A stretch of DNA of 64,000 nt, taken from contig CADAJN010000001.1 of NCBI GenBank assembly GCA_902788365.1, forward strand, positions 26,020 to 90,019, in the 5' to 3' direction. Position numbers and translations under genes: made by a program. The notes beneath the pieces were generated by a model. That model had not been told where the DNA came from. It made no database searches and saw only the letters and a list, made by a program, of their open reading frames with translations. The stretch is from an uncultured Pseudomonadota bacterium. GTDB taxonomy: Bacteria > Pseudomonadota > Alphaproteobacteria > RF32 > CAG-239. Positions 38,538 to 51,697 of the stretch are shown one piece after another. Numbering within the stretch: the first letter of the stretch is position 1; each line of letters opens with the position of its first letter.

Positions 38538-38786
38538 AAACCGATTGCCTTTTTGTCGTATGTTCCACGTGAAACATTAGACGGAATTTTCACTTGTAAA
38601 TAATTGATATTATGAGTTATTGACAAGATTTTATACAGAAAATCATACTTTTCTGGCAAGAAAAATCTTATATTTTTAAGTCAATATGTAGACAAAAATA
38701 AATATGATGATATATGATATTATATCGGAAGGCTCTGAGCTGTCACGCAGTGCTTTGGTGAACTAAAAATGATACAAAATAATTTG

Positions 38787-38859
38787 CACTGCGTAAGCAG
38801 CAGCGAAGCTTCTGATGCCTTATCCACGCAAAGCGTGGAGGCATGACAGTTTTATTTTG
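38787..38859. repeat. short palindromic repeat element (family 1, partial copy)
   Basis: cactgcgtaagcagca… shared with 57126-57141. Ends …ggaggcatgacag like the 128-bp unit terminus. Confidence 0.5.
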
Positions 38860-39166
38860 CCGCACTGGCGTGCGGGGATGCCTACGTCGCCTGCGGCTCC
38901 TCTGCATGACATACTCTTTGTCATTGTGAGGAGTGCGAAGCACGACGTAACAATCTTCGGACGCAAGTCCGATAATTAGCACACTTACCGCACTTTGTGC
39001 GGGGATACCTACGTCGCCTTGCGGATCCTCTGCATGACATACTCTTTGTCATTGTGAGGAGTGCAAAGCACGACGTAACAATCTTCGGACGCAAGTCCGA
39101 TAATTAGCACATTTACCGCACTAAAGTGCGGGGATGCCTACGTCGCCTGCGGCTCCTCTGCATGAC
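38860..39166. repeat. tandem array (about 2.4 copies) of a 128/129-bp structured repeat unit (family 1)
   Basis: Units 38860-38987, 38988-39116 and partial 39117-39166 are nearly identical. Each has hairpins ccgcacNNNNgtgcgg, atgaca…tgtcat, and cggac-GCAA-gtccg. Confidence 0.75.
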
Positions 39167-39224
39167 AGGAAGTAAATAGGACTGAATATAAGATAGAAAT
39201 AACGGATAGTGTGTATAGATAAAA

Positions 39225-39385
39225 TAAAGTCTCCTTACGCGGTGTAGAAATAGCGGATAACGAGGAAAATACAAAGAGGGACGCTTGTTCAAGCCAAAAC
39301 CATTTTTAATGAGTCAAATACGCAGTTCCCCTCTTTGCGCGGTGTAGACAGAACTACATAAGCAAAGAGGGGAACAAGTAGATGA
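39225..39385. repeat. family-2 repeat motifs (cgcggtgtagaNa… / caaagagggNa) including a 12-bp inverted repeat hairpin
   Basis: cgcggtgtagaaa at 39238 and cgcggtgtagaca at 39338. gttcccctctttg…caaagaggggaac inverted repeat. Related to the 104-bp units at 48978-49213. Confidence 0.5.
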
Positions 39386-39401
39386 CCATTAAAAATGGTT
39401 T

Positions 39402-39803
39402 TTATTTCTTGGTGGAAACACCGGCGTTCACATCCTTAACCGACACCGACAAATCGTCGGCAATACGAGCCGAACGACCGCGCAAAGCACGCAAGAAATA
39501 TAATTTCGCACGACGAACTTTACCAACGCGCGAAACTTCAATCTTTGCCACATTCGGAGAATATAACGGGAATACACGTTCCACACCTTCACCAAACGAA
39601 ATTTTACGAACCGTGAAAGACGAATTTAAGCCGTCATTTTTACGTGCAATACAAACACCTTCATAAATTTGAATACGTTCACGATCGCCTTCTTTTACTT
39701 TTGTATGAACGCGCAATGTATCACCCGGCTTAAAAATCGGCATATTTTTGCCTTCCATCAGCTTTTCCATTTGCTCTTTTTCAATATTTTCAATAATGTT
39801 CAT
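39402..39803 (-). CDS. rplS: 50S ribosomal protein L19
   Basis: [12 protein letters not shown]…[10 protein letters not shown]…[12 protein letters not shown] signature. Confidence 0.9.
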
Positions 39804-41561: not shown

Positions 41562-42941
41562 CTAAAACGGAAATCGGTTTTTCATCCCGCCCATCGGCAA
41601 GCGAGAGAGCGGATTGTTAAACAATTTGGCCACCGACGCCAAGCCGCCGAATTTGCCCATTTTCTTCATCATTGTTGACATTTGCTCATACGATTTAAGC
41701 AAAATGTTAACATCGTGAACCGTTACACCGGCACCGGCCGCAATACGACGTTTGCGCGACGCTTTGATGATGTCCGGCGTTTGGCGCTCTTTCTTAGTCA
41801 TAGAAAGAATAATCGCTGCCTGACGCTTCATCATTTGATCGGCCATACCGTTTTCTTCTATTTGAGCTTTGAACTTGGAAAGCCCCGGCAACATGCCGAC
41901 AATACTGCCGACACTGCCTAACTTTTGCATTTGTTGCATTTGGCTGAGCATATCGTTTAAATCAAACGAGCCTTTCAGCATTTTGCCGGCCATTTGCTCC
42001 ATTTCGTTTTTATCCACGTTTTCCATCGCTTTTTCTACCAGCGATACCACATCACCTTGGTCTAAAATGCGGCCGGCAACGCGGTCGGCATGAAACTCCT
42101 CAAAGTCCTCTATCTTTTCGCCCGTGCCCAAAAATTTAATTGCCGCACCCGATACCATTTTCATGGACAATGCCGCACCGGCACGCGATGTGCCGTCCAT
42201 GCGAGTGAGCACCAAGCCGGTAATGCCGACTTTTTCGTTAAACTCTTTAGCAACGTTGCATGCTTCTTGTCCGATAAGAGCATCGGCCACCAGTAGTGTT
42301 TCCGTCGGGTTAGCCAGCTTTTTGACCTCAGCGGCTTCATTCATCAGCGCTTCATCAATTTGCAGGCGACCAGCCGTATCCAAAATCAGCAAATCATATA
42401 CACCGGTTTTGGCTTCTTTCAAAGCACGCTTAGTAATATCCAGCGGCTTTTGGCCGGCTATAATCGGTAATACATCAACGCCGATTTGTTTGCCGAGCTG
42501 AGCCAATTGCTCTTGCGCCGCCGGACGATAAACATCTAGCGAGGCAAGCAAAATGCGTTTGCTCTTTTTGAGCTTTTGCGCTAATTTGGCTGCCGTAGTG
42601 GTTTTACCCGAACCTTGCAGGCCGACCAACATCAAGCACACCGGTGCCGGCGCGTTAAAATTAAGCGCCGTATCATCACCGCCGAGCAGTTTAACCAGCT
42701 CGTCATGCACGATTTTGACCACCATCTGCCCCGGTTGAACCGATTTAACCACCTTTTCGCCCAGCGCTTCTGCCTTAACTTGAGCAATAAAATCTTTAAC
42801 CACCGAAAGCGACACATCGGCTTCTAAAAGTGCCACACGGATTTCGCGCATGGCATCATCAATGTCTTTTTCGCTCAACACGCCACGAGACGTAATTTTG
42901 GAAAAAGCTGCATTCAGCCGATTTGTTAAACTCTCAAACAT
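41562..42941 (-). CDS. ffh: signal recognition particle protein Ffh
   Basis: N domain, GLQGSGKTTT P-loop, DTAGR, and the Met-rich M domain. Confidence 0.9.
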   Translation of the reverse strand: MFESLTNRLNAAFSKITSRGVLSEKDIDDAMREIRVALLEADVSLSVVKDFIAQVKAEALGEKVVKSVQPGQMVVKIVHDELVKLLGGDDTALNFNAPAPVCLMLVGLQGSGKTTTAAKLAQKLKKSKRILLASLDVYRPAAQEQLAQLGKQIGVDVLPIIAGQKPLDITKRALKEAKTGVYDLLILDTAGRLQIDEALMNEAAEVKKLANPTETLLVADALIGQEACNVAKEFNEKVGITGLVLTRMDGTSRAGAALSMKMVSGAAIKFLGTGEKIEDFEEFHADRVAGRILDQGDVVSLVEKAMENVDKNEMEQMAGKMLKGSFDLNDMLSQMQQMQKLGSVGSIVGMLPGLSKFKAQIEENGMADQMMKRQAAIILSMTKKERQTPDIIKASRKRRIAAGAGVTVHDVNILLKSYEQMSTMMKKMGKFGGLASVAKLFNNPLSRLPMGGMKNRFPF

Positions 42942-43158
42942 TAAAGTTTTATTCCTTTATGCCGTTAATACAAACAAATTTACGTCAGTGTGCGAACCCT
43001 CGCTGACTGACGGAACTCCTTAGAGTCTGGTATTTTTACATCATTTTAACGTGGTAAAAATCCTCTAAATTCGCTCATTTTATACGTTAAAAAATCGCCA
43101 TTGTCAATAACTTTTTTAACCAAAAACTAACGCTTTTTTTATTATTTGTCGCTATTAT

Positions 43159-47734: not shown

Positions 47735-48868
47735 ATGGCAGATACGGAATATTATGATTTATTAGAGGTTGCGCCAAACGCTTCAGCCGATGAAATTAAG
47801 CACGCATTTAGAAAACAAGCAATGAAATATCATCCGGATCGCAATCCGGGTGATAAAGAAGCCGAGCAGAAATTTAAGCAGATTAATGAGGCTTATGAAG
47901 TTTTAAGCAACGAGCAAAAACGTGCCGCTTATGACCATTATGGCAAAGCTGGTGTAAACGGTATGGGCGGCGGCAATCCGTTTGGCGGCGGATTTGATTT
48001 TTCGGGCGGATTTGCCGATATTTTCAGCGATATTTTTTCCGATTTTATGGGGGGCGGCGCCGGTGGCGGCAAACAGAAAAATCGCGGTATGGATTTGCGC
48101 TACACTTTAAATATTTCATTGGAAAAAGCCTTTCACGGCAGTGAAGAAGAAATTACTTTTCCAACCATTAAAAATTGCGAAACCTGCCACGGACACGGCA
48201 CCAAAGACGGCAAAGAACCAGAAACTTGCCCGATGTGCCAAGGACGCGGCAAAGTGCGGCGGCAACAAGGCGGCTTTTTCGTGTTTGAAACAACCTGCCC
48301 GCAATGCCACGGCACAGGACATATTGTTAAAGACCCTTGTCCGGATTGCCACGGTAGCGGTCAGCAAAAAATTAACAAAACGCTCAAGGTTAAAATTAAA
48401 CCGGGGATTGACACCAACATGCGTATTCGCATTGCCGGTGAAGGAACAGACGGTGTGTTTGGCGGCGAAAGCGGTGATTTGTATGTTGATGTGGTGGTGG
48501 AACCGCATAAGCTTTATGAACGTCGTGATACAGATTTATATGCCGCAATTCCGGTTTCGGTTTGTTGCGCAACTTTGGGCGGAACGGTTGAAATTCCGGG
48601 TATTGACGGAAAGAAGGTGACCGTTGAAGTGCCGGCCGGCACACAAAATGATACGCTGCTGAAGATCAAAGGCGCCGGTATGCCGCTTTATGATACCGAA
48701 AAGCGCGGCGATTTGTATGTGGCGGTCAAAGTGATGATTCCGCGCCATTTGAACGCTAAGCAAAAAGAGGCTTTAGAGGCTTTTCGCGATGCCAGTCCGG
48801 AAGATGATAAATGCGGCGAACCGGAAATGAAAAGCTTTTTGGATAAAATCAAAGACTTGTTTAATTAA
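47735..48868 (+). CDS. dnaJ: chaperone DnaJ
   Basis: J domain (HPD), G/F region, and four CxxCxGxG zinc repeats. 377 aa. Confidence 0.9.
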
Positions 48869-48960
48869 ATTGCCGCACGATGTGCGGAGATGCTTACGTC
48901 GGCCTAAAGGCCTCCTCAGCATGACAGACAAGGCCGAGATTACCCGCCTGCGCGGGTAAT
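48869..48960. repeat. family-1 palindromic element (dispersed copy)
   Basis: ccgcacgatgtgcggagatgcttacgtcggcc…cctcctcagcatgacag resembles the 128-bp unit head. gccgagattacccg…cgggtaatgacagg inverted repeat resembles 57106-57163. Confidence 0.6.
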
Positions 48961-48977
48961 GACAGGTTATTTTTATT

Positions 48978-49213
48978 TAGACGAGGTGGTAAATTACGAC
49001 GAGGTTGTAAACCTCGGATAATGAGCTTAATACGCCATTGTTTTTAGACGACGTGTAGAAACTACTACACAAGGAAAAAAACACAAGTAAGCACCAGCTA
49101 GATGAGATTGTAAACCTCGGATAATGAGCTTAATACGCTGTTGTTTTTAGACGACGTGTAGAAACTACTACACGAGGAGAAAAACAACAAGTAGTAAGCC
49201 ATTAGACGAGGTT
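48978..49213. repeat. tandem array (about 2.3 copies) of a 104-bp repeat (family 2)
   Basis: Units 48997-49100 and 49101-49204 are near-identical (gattgtaaacctcggataatgagcttaatacgc…gacgacgtgtagaaactactacac…). Partial copies flank them. Confidence 0.7.
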
Positions 49214-49426
49214 TTAATAGTGAGGAGGTGGCGTTTCTTCACTCAAAGGCTTTACAATATCCTGCTCTTCCAAAAATTGTTTAAAATTTGCGCATTGCTG
49301 AGTCAAAATATCCAGCATTTTACCTTGTTTTACCGTCATTTCGCTCAGCTCATCTATCGCCTTTTGCTGATGCGCCAAAGCTATTTCTATTGCCGTTAAA
49401 CGCGCATCCAAATCACTATCCGTCAT
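49214..49426 (-). CDS. slyX: SlyX family protein
   Basis: MTDSDLDARLTAIEIALAHQQKAIDELSE… ending …ETPPPHY, matching the SlyX C-terminus. Confidence 0.75.
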   Translation of the reverse strand: MTDSDLDARLTAIEIALAHQQKAIDELSEMTVKQGKMLDILTQQCANFKQFLEEQDIVKPLSEETPPPHY

Positions 49427-49427
49427 T

Positions 49428-51596
49428 TTAATAGCTCCCTTGCATATAGCTGCCGACATCTTTTTGCAGATTGAGATAGCGATCCATCATTTCTTTTTCA
49501 TATTTGCGCGTATCAATCCGGTTAAACAAAGTATTCAATTCTTCTTCCGATAAATCGGTCGGTTTACCGTCATCATCAAACTTATAGGCTTTCAGACGGT
49601 AATTATCTTCGCTCAGCTCAAACTTTTTATATCCTTCTTTATCGTATTCGCGATAATCTTTACCGGTCCATGCACCGTTTTTATATAATTTTTCCTGATA
49701 AAGCTGACCGTTGCTGTGATAGGTTTTGCGCCAACCTTCCATTTTGTTATTCTTAAACGTGACCGTAAACAGCTTGGTGCCGTTCGGGTAATAACCGACG
49801 GCCTCACCTTCGGCCACACCTTTAACATACGGAATTTGCGTTGAAAGATGCCCTTTATCATCAAAAATTTTGACCAGACCGTCTAACAAATTATTATGAT
49901 ACACTGCTTCAATATACGGATTGCCCATAATGTCAAAAGCGCTGTATTTGCCTTCCATAATGCCTTTGCGCACCTGTTGCTGTTCATAAACCTTATCTTT
50001 GCCGTCATAATAGGTGCGAATCGTGCCGTCCAGCTCACCGTCCACATACGGCAGCTCGCGGCTTTTGCTGCCATCCGGATTATATACGGTCAGTTTACCG
50101 GTTAAGTGGTCTAAAACCAATGTGCCGCTATCATCAAACGACAATGAATTTGTGGCATCTTTGCCTTCTGCAACTTCCAACGTAAATTTCGGATTACCGT
50201 TTTCATAATATCCGGTGCCGGTACCTTGAAATATACCGTCTTTGAAGTCTAATTTGGCTTCAACATTGCCAAACGAATCTTGGTGAATCACTTGCCCCGT
50301 GACTTTACCACCTTTATATGGTATTATTTCGCTGATATTGCGCCCGTCATCGGCAAATTTGACGGCTTTACCTTCAATCATGCCGTCAACATATGTTGCC
50401 TCCTGAGTTTTGACGCCTTTTTCGTTATATAGAGTTATCGGACCATTGGCCATATCGTTCACAAACTGCATGGAAAGTTTGATGTTGCCGTTCGGGTAAT
50501 ATTCTTTATAAACACCGTCAATCTTGTCATTTTTATATGTTGCTTCCGATTTTTTGCGACCGTTTTCGTAATATTGTTCATCAACACCGTTTTTTAAGCC
50601 GGCAACATATTCCGTTACGGCTTGCAGTTGGCCGTTATCATAAAACATTTCGGCTTTTCCCTCTAAAACATTGTCAACATAAGGAAATTTGGCATATAAC
50701 TTGCCGTTTTGATGATATAAATTCATATCGCCGTTCAGAGCATCATTTTTGTAAATCGCTTCCACAATTTTAACCCCTTCCGGCGTCCATTTGGCAAATA
50801 AGCCGTTGCGCTCATTATCGGTAAACGTAACGACTTCTTTAAGCTGCTTATTCGGATAATACGACTTTGCTTCGCCGTTTAAGTTATCCTCTTTATACAT
50901 CACTTCCGACTGCAAATTACCGTTTTTGAAATAAACCAGTTTTTTGCCGTCATACATATTATCAACATAGTTGCTGACATCACGCAGTTCGCCGCTTTCA
51001 TAATAAATTTGTTCCAAGCCCTGCGCCAAACCGTTAACCACCGAAGTTTCCGAACGCATTTTGCCGTTTTCATAATATTCAATCACTTTGCCGTCTATCA
51101 CGCCGTTTTCATTAAAATCCATGGTATAGCGCACATTGCCGTCCGGATAATAACCGGTTTCGCGACCGACCTGCACGTTGTTTTTGAACTGTGCCGTAGC
51201 CAGCAGTGTGCCGCTTTCATCAAACGATTTGGCCTCGCCATTGAGCTTATCGTCTTTATATATAAATATGCGTTCTACCTGTCCGTTTTTGTGGTAAGTG
51301 CGGGTTTCCCCTTCTCTTTTATCATCAACAAATGTTGATTCTATATGCACATTGCCGTTCGGATAATAAGTAACCTCCACGCCGTTACGCAGATTATTCT
51401 GATACGGAGTTTCAATATGCACATTGCCGTTGGAATAATATGTGGTTTCAATGCCATCTTCATGTTTGGTGCGCAAATCATCAACTGCCGGCTCTTCATA
51501 AAGCGAACCGCCGCCCAGTTTCGGAAACATATTATATTTAATGCCGATACCGACGCATACGGCCAATGCCAAAAGGAAAAGAAGACGTTTATTCAT
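49428..51596 (-). CDS. large MORN-variant (YwqK-type) repeat protein with N-terminal membrane anchor
   Basis: MNKRLLFLLALAVCVGIGI anchor, then about 25 YY.NG…E…Y.NG.L.G repeats. 722 aa. Confidence 0.6.
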   Translation of the reverse strand: MNKRLLFLLALAVCVGIGIKYNMFPKLGGGSLYEEPAVDDLRTKHEDGIETTYYSNGNVHIETPYQNNLRNGVEVTYYPNGNVHIESTFVDDKREGETRTYHKNGQVERIFIYKDDKLNGEAKSFDESGTLLATAQFKNNVQVGRETGYYPDGNVRYTMDFNENGVIDGKVIEYYENGKMRSETSVVNGLAQGLEQIYYESGELRDVSNYVDNMYDGKKLVYFKNGNLQSEVMYKEDNLNGEAKSYYPNKQLKEVVTFTDNERNGLFAKWTPEGVKIVEAIYKNDALNGDMNLYHQNGKLYAKFPYVDNVLEGKAEMFYDNGQLQAVTEYVAGLKNGVDEQYYENGRKKSEATYKNDKIDGVYKEYYPNGNIKLSMQFVNDMANGPITLYNEKGVKTQEATYVDGMIEGKAVKFADDGRNISEIIPYKGGKVTGQVIHQDSFGNVEAKLDFKDGIFQGTGTGYYENGNPKFTLEVAEGKDATNSLSFDDSGTLVLDHLTGKLTVYNPDGSKSRELPYVDGELDGTIRTYYDGKDKVYEQQQVRKGIMEGKYSAFDIMGNPYIEAVYHNNLLDGLVKIFDDKGHLSTQIPYVKGVAEGEAVGYYPNGTKLFTVTFKNNKMEGWRKTYHSNGQLYQEKLYKNGAWTGKDYREYDKEGYKKFELSEDNYRLKAYKFDDDGKPTDLSEEELNTLFNRIDTRKYEKEMMDRYLNLQKDVGSYMQGSY

Positions 51597-51697
51597 GATT
51601 TTTCTCCAACAACTATAACCAACATTATACAATTAACACGAAAAGTTTTTTGCTTCAAGCGCTATAAAGCTTTTGAACACATTTTTAATGCTGTTTT

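What the first reader, a model, noticed from the sequence alone, without database searches (positions are those of the whole stretch)
48869..49213. Second repeat-rich convergent spacer (dnaJ/slyX) with the same family-1 then family-2 order as the rppH/rplS locus
Immediately after the dnaJ stop there is a family-1 palindromic element (ccgcacgatgtgcggagatgcttacgtcggcc…cagcatgacag, then gccgagattacccgcc/gcgggtaatgacagg). This is followed by about 2.3 tandem copies of a 104-bp unit (48997-49100, 49101-49204) containing gaggttgtaaacctc and gacgacgtgtagaaactactacac. At the rppH/rplS locus the family-1 array is likewise followed by sequences with cgcggtgtagaaa / cgcggtgtagaca and …caagtag motifs (39225-39385), which is the same motif family. 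Two independent loci sharing the same composite order suggest a modular element inserted as a unit rather than random drift. An example is a composite MITE or a terminator/stabiliser cassette. The 104-bp array runs right up to the slyX stop codon.
Basis: seen in the sequence. Interest (0 to 1): 0.55.

Follow-up and report, generated by a model that had tools for sequence, protein, structure and literature searches.

The report
Long hairpin repeats abutting stop codons
The dnaJ/slyX spacer is a strain-variable patchwork of separate palindromic repeats, and its "104-bp unit" is a roughly 110-base hairpin with conserved structure that always sits against the stop codon of the gene on the other strand, most likely as a transcription terminator, which makes it a new family of a well-known kind of bacterial intergenic repeat.

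Summary
After the dnaJ stop come a family-1 element, a small hairpin, then two head-to-tail units (period 103, not 104) that reach the slyX stop codon. A true homologue lies at the rplS stop (39294-39405).

The unit is a 103-110 nt imperfect hairpin of 39 pairs. Seventeen pairs show compensatory changes, and no Rfam, E. coli, plasmid or phage match was found. Copies occur at five unrelated gene ends (slyX, rplS, ettA, uvrB, a membrane ORF) in a small clade of uncultured Alphaproteobacteria. In each, the T-tract end touches or overlaps the stop codon of the opposite-strand gene. The + strand folds better in 12 of 12 units.

Conspecific strains (flanks 97-99.5% identical) differ in unit number, unit subtype, and presence of the small hairpin or family-1, yet all keep one intact hairpin at the stop codon. 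A sister species keeps the unit but lacks family-1.

So the shared order reflects separate modules with their own positional rules, not one composite MITE. The best reading is a BIME/RIME/ERIC-like mosaic whose long hairpin acts as a terminator or insulator. Function is inferred. It is a new member of a known kind, of moderate interest.

The parts
48871..48927 (+). Family-1 module. It consists of the hairpin CCGCAC-GAT-GTGCGG followed by GATGCTTACGTCGGCC...CTCAGCATGACAG, and starts 2 nt after the dnaJ stop.
   Evidence: Its core matches the 128-bp array at 38870-39167 (4 matches, 0.01 expected). It is found only in this species and is absent from the orthologous spacer of L008.
48928..48965 (+). 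"Hairpin-3" module, ACAAGGCCGAGATTACCCGC-CTGC-GCGGGTAATGACAG, followed by a T-rich run (48966-48976). It is a separate insertion bounded by the direct repeat ATGACAG.
   Evidence: It is exactly absent in the conspecific strains L031 and L034. It is present next to family-2 in L008, L005, L029 and L043. On the + strand it resembles an intrinsic terminator for dnaJ, which is an inference.
48977..49010 (+). Two extra copies of the 16-nt 3'-terminal motif of the unit (TTAGACGAGGTGGTAA and TACGACGAGGTTGTAA). The second can pair with the 5' arm of unit 1 (GAGGTT-GTA-AACCTC).
   Evidence: family D2, inverted pair I4. The same motif precedes units in L005, L030, L031, L034 and L043.
49006..49108 (+). 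Family-2 unit 1. The 5' arm and apex are intact. The 3' arm (ACAAGTAAGCACCAGCTAGATGAG) belongs to another subtype, so the long hairpin does not close.
   Evidence: The model scores it at 53.7 bits against 126.9 for unit 2. Its fold is -17.5 kcal/mol against -46.6. It is absent in strains L002, L030, L032, L033 and L034.
49109..49218 (+). Family-2 unit 2, the intact 110-nt hairpin with 39 pairs. It has an A-tract at its 5' base and a T-tract at its 3' base, and the last TTA is the complement of the slyX stop codon (49214-49216).
   Evidence: It is present in every conspecific strain and in sister species L008.
39294..39405 (+). Family-2 unit of the rplS subtype ("type A"). It is an intact hairpin of -59.6 kcal/mol whose T-tract end overlaps the rplS stop codon (39402-39404).
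   Evidence: (102.3 bits). Many stem pairs differ from the slyX unit by compensatory changes.
39195..39293 (+). Fossil material upstream of the rplS unit. 39195-39251 is the 5' half of a "type B" unit (AGAAATAACGGATAGTGTG...GCGGTGTAGAAAT), followed by filler.
   Evidence: Strains L037, L040 and L041 carry the complete type-B hairpin, there fused to the rplS stop. The model does not detect this stretch in the window.
38836..39168 (+). Family-1 cluster of the rppH/rplS spacer. It holds the small hairpin CCACGC-AAA-GCGTGG plus GGCATGACAG, then 2.3 copies of a 128-bp unit that contains a family-1 copy and an inverted, diverged partner.
   Evidence: The copy number and module content differ in every conspecific strain examined, and the spacer ranges from 498 to 1004 nt.

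Best explanation
**What it is.** The spacer is a mosaic of separable palindromic repeat modules of the BIME/RIME kind. The "104-bp unit" (family 2) is a 103-110 nt long imperfect hairpin. It belongs to a low-copy repeat family confined, as far as I could see, to a small clade of uncultured gut or rumen Alphaproteobacteria.

**Position rule.** One intact copy is always fused by its T-tract end to the TAA stop codon of the gene on the opposite strand.

**How it most likely works.** I think it is the intergenic intrinsic-terminator or insulator hairpin. On the + strand, an A-tract, a 39-bp hairpin and a U-tract would stop transcription arriving from the dnaJ (or rppH) side right at the stop codon of slyX (or rplS). 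Its complement would give the abutted gene's mRNA a very stable 3' hairpin followed by a shorter U run.

**The other pieces.** Extra upstream units are by-products of unequal recombination between the 12-16 nt terminal direct repeats and between the conserved apexes. They lose their 3' arms. Family-1 and hairpin-3 are unrelated REP-like modules that pile up on the far side, typically after an ATGAC(AG) motif.

**Shown:** the structure, the covariation, the strand bias, the position rule and the strain polymorphism.
**Inferred:** termination, and the way copies spread.
For: **Structure.**
- Fold z-scores are -8.4 to -8.9.
- There are 39 consensus pairs, 17 of them with changes on both sides. 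96% of cells are paired, and 0 of 500 shuffles reach the observed values. Slid controls give 33-52% paired.

**Selection.**
- Between the window species and L008, four-fold degenerate sites of dnaJ are only 52% identical.
- The unit nevertheless keeps 36 apical nt unchanged, and its stems change in a compensatory way.

**Position rule, at five unrelated gene ends.**
- slyX.
- rplS, for types A and B.
- ettA, whose last four codons and stop lie inside the element.
- A membrane ORF in L006.
- uvrB.

**Terminator-like design.**
- There is an A-tract at the 5' base, and 4-7 T follow the 3' base on the + strand.
- Relatives that lack family 2 carry ordinary A-tract/hairpin/T-tract terminators at the same place after rplS.
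- The window genome uses such terminators at other gene ends.
- No other terminator-like site lies between the rpoB start and the ettA stop in L007.

**Strand.**
- The + strand is more stable than its complement in 12 of 12 units, by 0.3 to 15.9 kcal/mol.
- G-U pairs outnumber A-C mismatches 12 to 4.
- The conserved tandem G-A internal loop (CGGATA/TAGACG) only makes sense on the + strand (read from the sequence).

**Maintenance.**
- All conspecific contigs that cover the sites keep one intact hairpin at the stop codon, although unit number and subtype vary.
Against: - No transcript data exist, so termination is untested.
- A plain terminator needs neither 110 nt nor an apex (CG-NN-GTGTAG-loop-CTACA) conserved across all subtypes. 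That conservation points to an extra partner, either a protein or a mobilising enzyme.
- At slyX the + strand U-tract has only four U and is partly paired with the A-tract.
- The simple terminator scan does not call the element, because its criteria are for short hairpins.
- In L007 no + strand gene lies upstream of the element, so its + strand role there would depend on antisense transcription that has not been observed.
- The counts of G-U against A-C reduce to about 9 against 4 independent events, which is not significant alone.
Confidence: 0.42

Rival explanations
1. Family 2 is a selfish mobile or gene-converting DNA hairpin element, of the MITE, REP or IS200/IS605-derived type. An unknown transposase or recombinase recognises its single-stranded + strand hairpin and places it at a preferred target next to stop codons or after ATGAC(AG). 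Its structure is conserved for that enzyme, not for the host.
For: - Copies lie at five non-orthologous loci in several lineages.
- They are absent from about 110 kb of related genomes, including orthologous dnaJ and rplS ends.
- The same subtypes turn up at different loci, and different subtypes sit at one locus in strains whose flanks are 97-99.5% identical, for example L034 and rplS types A, A' and B.
- There are chimeric units and fossil 5' halves.
- The structure is strand-specific, with conserved unpaired purines.
- Arrays often start just after ATGAC(AG), as the other modules do.
- The L001 contig breaks at this point.
Against: - There is no target-site duplication at any copy (read).
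- No empty site was seen among the conspecific contigs examined.
- The orthologous copy is retained with compensatory changes across a divergence that leaves four-fold sites 52% identical.
- Copy number appears low: two loci in the 64-kb window and none elsewhere in the fetched flanks.
- No transposase gene was looked for or seen next to any copy.
Confidence: 0.25
2. The + strand hairpin is the body and terminator of an independent small RNA, or of a cis-antisense RNA. It is present in one or two tandem copies, and its conserved purine-rich apex (ACGACGUGUAGAAACUACUACACGAGGAG) binds a protein or a target RNA.
For: - The + strand is favoured in 12 of 12 units.
- A U-tract follows the closing stem.
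- The apex sequence is invariant in orthologues despite saturated silent sites.
- Covariation is strong.
- Tandem homologous sRNA units are known in Alphaproteobacteria, such as AbcR1/2 and CcsR1-4 (own knowledge).
Against: - There is no conserved promoter.
- The ettA copies in L005 and L007 are alignable only from TTTAGAAACTCGG onward.
- The distance from hairpin-3 to the unit varies from 29 to 48 nt.
- No promoter-like site lies upstream in the window or in L007.
- No Rfam family matches.
Confidence: 0.15
3. The element acts on the minus strand as a 3'-UTR hairpin of the abutted gene (slyX, rplS, ettA, uvrB). It would end or stabilise that mRNA or, because it starts at the stop codon, modulate translation termination in the way reported for REP elements within 15 nt of a stop codon.
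For: - It touches or overlaps the stop codon at all five loci.
- In L007 it is the only strong hairpin between ettA and the downstream co-directional rpoB.
- The complement still folds at -27 to -57 kcal/mol and is followed by 3-4 U.
- Liang, Rudd and Deutscher (2015) described the REP and stop-codon effect (own knowledge; the paper was not retrieved).
Against: - The minus strand is the less stable strand in 12 of 12 units, by up to 16 kcal/mol.
- Wobble pairs favour the + strand.
- The conserved internal loops would be pyrimidine mismatches on the minus strand.
- The minus-strand U runs are short, such as UUUAC and UUUCUAAA.
Confidence: 0.1
4. Family-1 plus family-2 form one composite MITE-like cassette that was inserted as a unit at both loci.
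For: - Order and orientation are the same at the only two window loci that hold either family.
- A family-1-like repeat again accompanies family 2 at uvrB in L029.
Against: - Family 2 occurs without family 1 in L005, L006, L007 and in the orthologous spacer of L008.
- The modules are gained and lost independently among conspecific strains.
- The gap between the families differs, about 50 nt at slyX and about 125 nt at rplS.
- There are no common borders and no target duplications.
Confidence: 0.04

Closest known systems
REP/BIME clusters of enterobacteria (bacterial interspersed mosaic elements) and RIME elements of Sinorhizobium (own knowledge)
   Same: - They are mosaics of several short palindromic modules at gene 3' ends and between convergent genes.
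- The modules combine in variable numbers and orientations and are polymorphic between strains.
- Proposed roles are mRNA 3' protection and termination.
   Different: - The main module here is a single 110-nt hairpin, not a 20-40 nt REP.
- There is no sequence similarity to E. coli.
- The fixed fusion to the stop codon of the opposite-strand gene is not a described property of BIMEs.
- No RAYT gene was examined.
ERIC/IRU elements (about 127-bp imperfect palindromes of Enterobacteriaceae and Vibrio) (own knowledge)
   Same: - They are long imperfect palindromes of similar size, in low to moderate copy number.
- They are conserved in sequence across species and lie at gene ends.
- They can fold as RNA hairpins that affect the flanking mRNA.
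- Variants with internal insertions exist, comparable to L029.
   Different: - There is no detectable homology: no blastn match in 5,426 E. coli genomes.
- The host clade is different.
- ERICs occur in either orientation relative to transcription, whereas here the orientation is fixed relative to the abutted gene.
Bidirectional intrinsic terminators (A-tract, hairpin, T-tract) between convergent genes
   Same: - The flanking A- and T-tracts are present.
- The element lies directly after stop codons.
- Relatives have ordinary terminators at the same place after rplS, and the window genome uses them elsewhere.
   Different: - The hairpin has 39 pairs with internal loops instead of 5-15 pairs.
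- The sequence is conserved and repeated across loci and species.
- It forms tandem arrays.
- The asymmetry between the strands is strong.
Correia/NEMIS elements of Neisseria and other MITEs (own knowledge)
   Same: - They are 100-160 bp inverted-repeat elements in intergenic regions.
- They are co-transcribed with neighbouring genes and can carry terminator or promoter activity.
   Different: - No terminal target duplication is present; the TA and TTA tests failed.
- No parent insertion sequence is known.
- Copy number is much lower.
- The whole element is one hairpin, with compensatory evolution along its stems.
Tandem homologous sRNAs of Alphaproteobacteria (AbcR1/2, CcsR1-4 or "cuckoo" RNAs) (own knowledge)
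   Same: - They are head-to-tail homologous units of about 100 nt, in variable number.
- They occur in Alphaproteobacteria and are associated with the 3' end of a small gene.
   Different: - No match to any Rfam model was found.
- Each unit is a single long hairpin, not two short ones with C-rich loops.
- There is no conserved promoter, and only the last unit is intact.

Membership tests
MITE (non-autonomous transposon) | Terminal inverted repeats | tested here: met
   The whole unit is an inverted repeat. The terminal arms AAACCTCGGATAATG and CATTAGACGAGGTTT are 87% complementary, and 39 pairs are predicted.
MITE (non-autonomous transposon) | Target-site duplication flanking each copy | tested here: not met
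   I compared the flanks of seven independent copies. No consistent TA, TTA or longer duplication was found. The 12-16 nt direct repeat at array ends has the same sequence at different loci, so it is part of the element.
MITE (non-autonomous transposon) | Insertion polymorphism (filled and empty sites) and many dispersed copies | tested here: inconclusive
   Copies lie at five unrelated loci, and orthologous sites of more distant relatives lack them. No empty site was seen among conspecific strains. There are only two loci in the 64-kb window. No whole genome was available for a full count.
MITE (non-autonomous transposon) | A related autonomous element that encodes the transposase | not testable with these tools
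   The window species was not found in the searchable genome collection, and no whole genome of the clade could be scanned.
REP/BIME | Short (20-40 nt) imperfect palindromes with a conserved 5' GTAG | tested here: not met
   Family 2 is 103-110 nt. GTAG occurs inside the apical stem (GTGTAG) and not at a 5' end. Family-1 and hairpin-3 are REP-sized but end in ATGAC(AG).
REP/BIME | Mosaic clusters of several module types at gene 3' ends, variable between strains | tested here: met
   Among strains with 97-99.5% identical flanks, the slyX spacer is 204-345 nt and the rplS spacer 498-1004 nt, with modules shuffled.
REP/BIME | An associated RAYT (Y1 transposase) gene in the genome | not tested
   The window ORFs were not screened for Y1 transposases, and no whole genome was available.
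ERIC/IRU | Sequence homology to the ERIC consensus | tested here: not met
   blastn with words of 11 bases against 5,426 complete E. coli genomes, which carry ERIC copies, gave no match at E <= 0.01.
Intrinsic (Rho-independent) terminator | A stable G+C-containing stem immediately followed by a U-tract | tested here: met
   On the + strand the closing stem CCTCGG/CGAGG (or its equivalents) is followed by 4-7 T in all intact units. The minus strand has 3-4 T. The hairpin is atypically long, so the simple scan does not list it.
Intrinsic (Rho-independent) terminator | Transcript 3' ends mapping to the U-tract | not testable with these tools
   No transcriptome data were available.
Known structured RNA families (Rfam 15) | A score at or above the family's gathering threshold | tested here: not met
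   The only window hit is ffh sRNA at 42975-43027. Permissive scans of both loci gave only chance-level hits with E >= 0.28.
Integron attC site | R'' (RYYYAAC) and R' (GTTRRRY) boxes at the two ends of the hairpin | tested here: not met
   Read from the sequence, the ends are TGTAAAC... and ...GGTTTTAAT. Neither fits, and no cassettes lie between the units.
Protein-coding small ORF | A reading frame conserved between copies | tested here: not met
   The minus-strand ORFs of 34-35 aa (MAYYLLFFSSC...) are frameshifted in L005 and stop after 11 codons in the rplS unit (read). The unit length is not a multiple of 3. Only one related predicted protein was found in 5.8 billion.

The most novel reading that the evidence does not exclude
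Family 2 may be an undescribed class of strand-specific structured element of about 110 nt. Its conserved apex would be read by a dedicated protein, and a mechanism that targets the stop codon or terminator of a gene would install the element there, in a fixed antisense orientation, and repeatedly replace it. In practice that would be either a hairpin-guided mobile "terminator cassette" or a new cis-antisense RNA family that insulates genes from convergent transcription.
Probability: 0.2. Interest if true: 0.65.

Novelty: new member of a known kind. Interest (0 to 1): 0.4.

Why it matters
The finding adds a structurally well-supported repeat family to the known palindromic intergenic repeats: 17 covarying pairs and a clear strand bias. 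It comes from a poorly studied clade of uncultured gut and rumen Alphaproteobacteria.

Two features deserve a follow-up. First, the intact hairpin is strictly fused to the stop codon of the opposite-strand gene. Second, hairpin subtypes are swapped between strains that are otherwise 97-99.5% identical. If the hairpin is a terminator or insulator that is exchanged like a cassette, it would show how terminators are replaced and spread within a genome.

There is also a practical side. These spacers vary in length between strains (204-345 nt and 498-1004 nt). They appear to break metagenome assemblies, and they could serve as strain markers.

Tried and rejected
- **Known RNA family.** The Rfam gathering scan of the window and permissive scans of both loci gave nothing relevant.
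- **Coding.** The small minus-strand ORFs are not conserved.
- **ERIC, plasmid or phage origin.** There was no blastn match in E. coli genomes, plasmids or phages and no exact apex match in viral contigs.
- **attC site.** The R boxes are absent (read from the sequence).
- **Target-site duplications.** TA and TTA were tested on all copies and are inconsistent.
- **Own promoter for a + strand sRNA.** No promoter-like site lies upstream. The upstream flanks are not conserved between the orthologous ettA copies.
- **CsrA-sponge idea.** I dropped the GGA-motif reading because the motifs are not conserved in the rplS subtype and CsrA is uncommon in Alphaproteobacteria (own knowledge).
- **DNA operator.** I dropped the idea that GTGTAG-N6-CTACAC binds a dimeric protein, because L006 and L034 change both half-sites in a compensatory way (GTGTAC...GTACAC). 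That fits a hairpin rather than a protein half-site.
- **More copies.** The genome-contig scan gave only two real loci, and the metagenome scan only one. Orthologous dnaJ and rplS ends in about 110 kb of relatives hold no unit.
- **Literature.** Two searches did not retrieve a description of such an element.
Full report

Yes. The dnaJ ORF ends at 48868 and the slyX ORF (minus strand) ends at 49214, which leaves a 345-nt convergent spacer. It contains the following features.
- A family-1 copy lies at 48871-48927. Its core, GTGCGGRGATGCYTACGTCG, matches the three copies in the 128-bp array at 38870-39167. That makes 4 matches where 0.01 are expected.
- A small hairpin, TTACCCGC-CTGC-GCGGGTAA, lies at 48940-48959.
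- A tandem repeat lies at 49001-49193, with period 103, 1.9 copies and 93% matches. It is flanked by short extra copies of its 16-nt terminal motif at 48977, 48995 and 49202.
- The last of these copies overlaps the slyX stop codon.

The period is therefore 103, not 104. "2.3 copies" is fair only if the terminal fragments are counted.

The link to the rppH/rplS spacer is also real. A plain local alignment gives about 62% identity over 169 nt. A covariance model built from five units scores 39294-39405 at 102 bits. No other place in the 64-kb window carries either family.

**2. What is the unit?**

It is not a string of small motifs. It is one long imperfect hairpin of 103-110 nt.
- The arm AAACCTCGGATAATG pairs with CATTAGACGAGGTTT, and the pairing continues to an apical stem GTGTAG-AAACTA-CTACAC.
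- The fold of 49090-49225 has -49.5 kcal/mol and a z-score of -8.4.
- Only unit 2 (49109-49218) closes. Unit 1 (49006-49108) has a 3' arm of another subtype and folds at just -17.5 kcal/mol.
- No Rfam family matches, even with permissive thresholds.
- The 34-35 aa ORFs on the minus strand are not conserved.
- There is no similarity to E. coli genomes (so none to ERIC), plasmids or phages.

**3. Related copies elsewhere**

Pattern scans and context look-ups found units at these places.
- Next to ettA, in a MAG labelled Alphaproteobacteria (L005) and in a JGI metagenome contig (L007).
- Next to a 134-aa membrane ORF, in an uncultured "Rhodospirillaceae" rumen MAG (L006).
- Next to uvrB (L029).
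- In the orthologous dnaJ/slyX spacer of a sister species (L008), whose DnaJ is 90% identical.

DnaJ and L19 relatives are labelled Alphaproteobacteria.

About 110 kb from more distant relatives holds no unit. That DNA includes their dnaJ and rplS ends. Those relatives instead carry ordinary A-tract/hairpin/T-tract terminators after rplS.

**4. Structure is under selection**

On seven distinct units, 96% of the cells of the 39 consensus pairs are standard pairs. Seventeen pairs show changes on both sides. None of 500 shuffles reaches these values, and slid controls give 33-52% pairing.

Between the window species and L008, four-fold degenerate sites of dnaJ are only 52% identical. Even so, the unit keeps 36 apical nucleotides unchanged, and its middle stems have been rewritten in a compensatory way.

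Other subtypes replace the whole middle stem with an unrelated complementary pair of arms. Examples are L034, L043 and the "type B" unit of L037, L040 and L041.

Three features are invariant across all subtypes:
- the apex CG-NN-GTGTAG-loop-CTACA;
- TAATGAG ... CCATTA-like arms;
- the A-tract and T-tract at the base.

**5. Which strand?**

The + strand (dnaJ sense) is more stable than its complement in 12 of 12 units, by 0.3 to 15.9 kcal/mol. G-U pairs outnumber A-C mismatches 12 to 4, or roughly 9 to 4 as independent events.

The conserved internal loops are purine-rich on the + strand. They include a tandem G-A (CGGATA/TAGACG). On the minus strand they would be pyrimidine mismatches.

The structural constraint therefore acts on the + strand, either as RNA or as single-stranded DNA. 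That strand is antisense to the gene the element touches.

**6. The position rule**

At all five unrelated loci, the T-tract end of the + strand hairpin touches or overlaps the TAA stop codon of a gene on the opposite strand.

| Gene | Junction |
|---|---|
| slyX | TAT TAA AAC CTC... |
| rplS | AAG AAA TAA AAA CCA...; in type B the stop lies inside the basal stem |
| ettA | The last four codons (KKLV) and the stop lie inside the element |
| L006 membrane ORF | TAA AAC TCG... |
| uvrB | The stop directly adjoins the element's A-tract |

With spacers of 200-1000 nt and two possible orientations, chance cannot produce this.

**7. Strain comparison**

Contigs that encode the identical SlyX or L19 protein have flanks 97-99.5% identical to the window. 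They are conspecific strains.

The slyX spacer ranges from 204 to 345 nt.
- There are one or two units.
- Hairpin-3 is present or exactly absent, as a 38-nt indel bounded by the direct repeat ATGACAG.
- One strain (L034) carries a different unit subtype.

The rplS spacer ranges from 498 to 1004 nt.
- Family-1, hairpin-3 and further modules occur in different numbers.
- The stop-proximal hairpin is of type A, A' or B.
- The 5' halves of other types survive upstream as fossils. The window's 39195-39251 is one of them.

Every strain that covers the site keeps exactly one intact hairpin at the stop codon.

**8.

The co-occurrence and the common order are real, but the spacer is not one composite element. 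Family 2 exists without family 1 in L005, L006, L007 and in the orthologous L008 spacer. The modules also come and go independently among strains.

The order follows from the position rule. Family 2 is pinned to the minus-strand gene's stop, so everything else must lie on the other side.

A looser association does exist. Hairpin-3 directly precedes a family-2 arm at slyX, ettA (L005), uvrB (L029) and rplS (L043). In L029, a family-1-like repeat sits inside two family-2 5' arms, right after TAATGAG. The modules may therefore share insertion preferences, often after ATGAC(AG).

**9. Most likely mechanism (confidence 0.42)**

The element has the layout of a bidirectional intrinsic terminator, with an A-tract, a hairpin and a T-tract. 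It sits where relatives and other genes of this genome have ordinary terminators. The better U-tract (4-7 U) and the better fold are on the + strand.

I therefore read the intact unit as the terminator or insulator that stops transcription arriving from the dnaJ or rppH side exactly at the stop codon of slyX or rplS. It would also leave the abutted gene's mRNA with a very stable 3' hairpin.

The extra units would be by-products of unequal recombination between the 12-16 nt direct repeats and the conserved apexes.

This is inference, because no transcript data were available. It does not explain why the apex sequence is invariant. That invariance keeps three rivals alive:
- a selfish single-stranded-DNA hairpin element with a dedicated enzyme (0.25);
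- an independent + strand sRNA (0.15);
- a 3'-UTR element acting on the abutted mRNA (0.10).

The composite-MITE model gets 0.04.

**10. Comparison with known systems, and verdict**

The whole spacer behaves like the BIME clusters of enterobacteria or the RIME elements of rhizobia. The long hairpin resembles ERIC or Correia elements in size and setting.

It fails the tests for several families:
- ERIC homology;
- MITE target duplications;
- REP size and the 5' GTAG;
- attC boxes;
- every Rfam family.

I file it as a new member of the known kind "palindromic intergenic mosaic repeats". It has two unusual traits: the fixed fusion to the stop codon of the opposite-strand gene, and cassette-like subtype replacement between near-identical strains. 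Interest is 0.4.

Noticed in passing
window 48921-48965 (compare L031 and L034): The small hairpin module ACAAGGCCGAGATTACCCGCCTGCGCGGGTAATGACAG is a clean 38-nt insertion or deletion between conspecific strains, bounded by the 7-nt direct repeat ATGACAG. Family-1 and the small hairpins of the rplS spacer also end in (G)CATGAC(AG) followed by TTTTATTTT. This suggests a set of REP-like modules that insert after ATGAC(AG).
   Followed up: partly
window 38538-39401; L037-L044: The rppH/rplS spacer ranges from 498 to 1004 nt among strains whose flanks are 97-99.5% identical. Further repeat types are absent from the window. One example is GTATGTAGACCCTTCGGGGAACATACGGCAAAAATCACTATCGCAGATTTTTG, present in up to three copies right after rppH in L040.
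   Followed up: partly
window 38558-38577: The near-perfect palindrome GTATGTTCCACGTGAAACAT, with a CACGTG core, lies about 20 nt after the rppH stop. It is a perfect palindrome in several strains (ATGTTTCACGTGAAACAT).
   Followed up: no
window 38600-38780: An AT-rich segment conserved among most strains holds a near-consensus minus-strand promoter-like site (GTGACA-16-TATAAT, 38746 to 38719) and two + strand sites (38620-38649, 38689-38718). An unannotated small transcript may start here, and + strand transcription from it would run into the repeat cluster towards rplS.
   Followed up: no
L005 2698-2714 and L007 4189-4205: ettA reads 12 nt into the element, so its last four codons (KKLV) and its stop codon are supplied by the hairpin's basal arm. 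The stop overlaps an ATG (TAATG) that opens the non-conserved small ORF.
   Followed up: partly
L029 2270-2450: In the uvrB spacer, two tandem copies of a 78-nt piece each consist of a family-2 5' arm (AAAACCTCGGATAATGAG) joined to a family-1-like repeat (TGTCATCCTATGGCAAGCGTAGCGCGACCATAGGATC). This looks like a nested insertion that was then duplicated.
   Followed up: partly
window 42975-43027 (minus strand): This is the only Rfam match at gathering threshold in the window: ffh sRNA (RF01793, 36.7 bits), just upstream of the ffh gene (41562-42941, minus strand).
   Followed up: no
L001 (end of contig) and many short contigs: Metagenome contigs of this species often end inside or next to these repeat spacers. 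L001 stops at GGGTAATGA. The repeats or their strain variation seem to break assemblies.
   Followed up: no
window 49428-51632 (minus strand): The gene upstream of slyX encodes a 734-aa protein made of many repeats of a motif of about 23 residues (YYxNGxxxxExxYxxG). Direct DNA repeats inside it were reported by the repeat finder (families D4 and D8).
   Followed up: no
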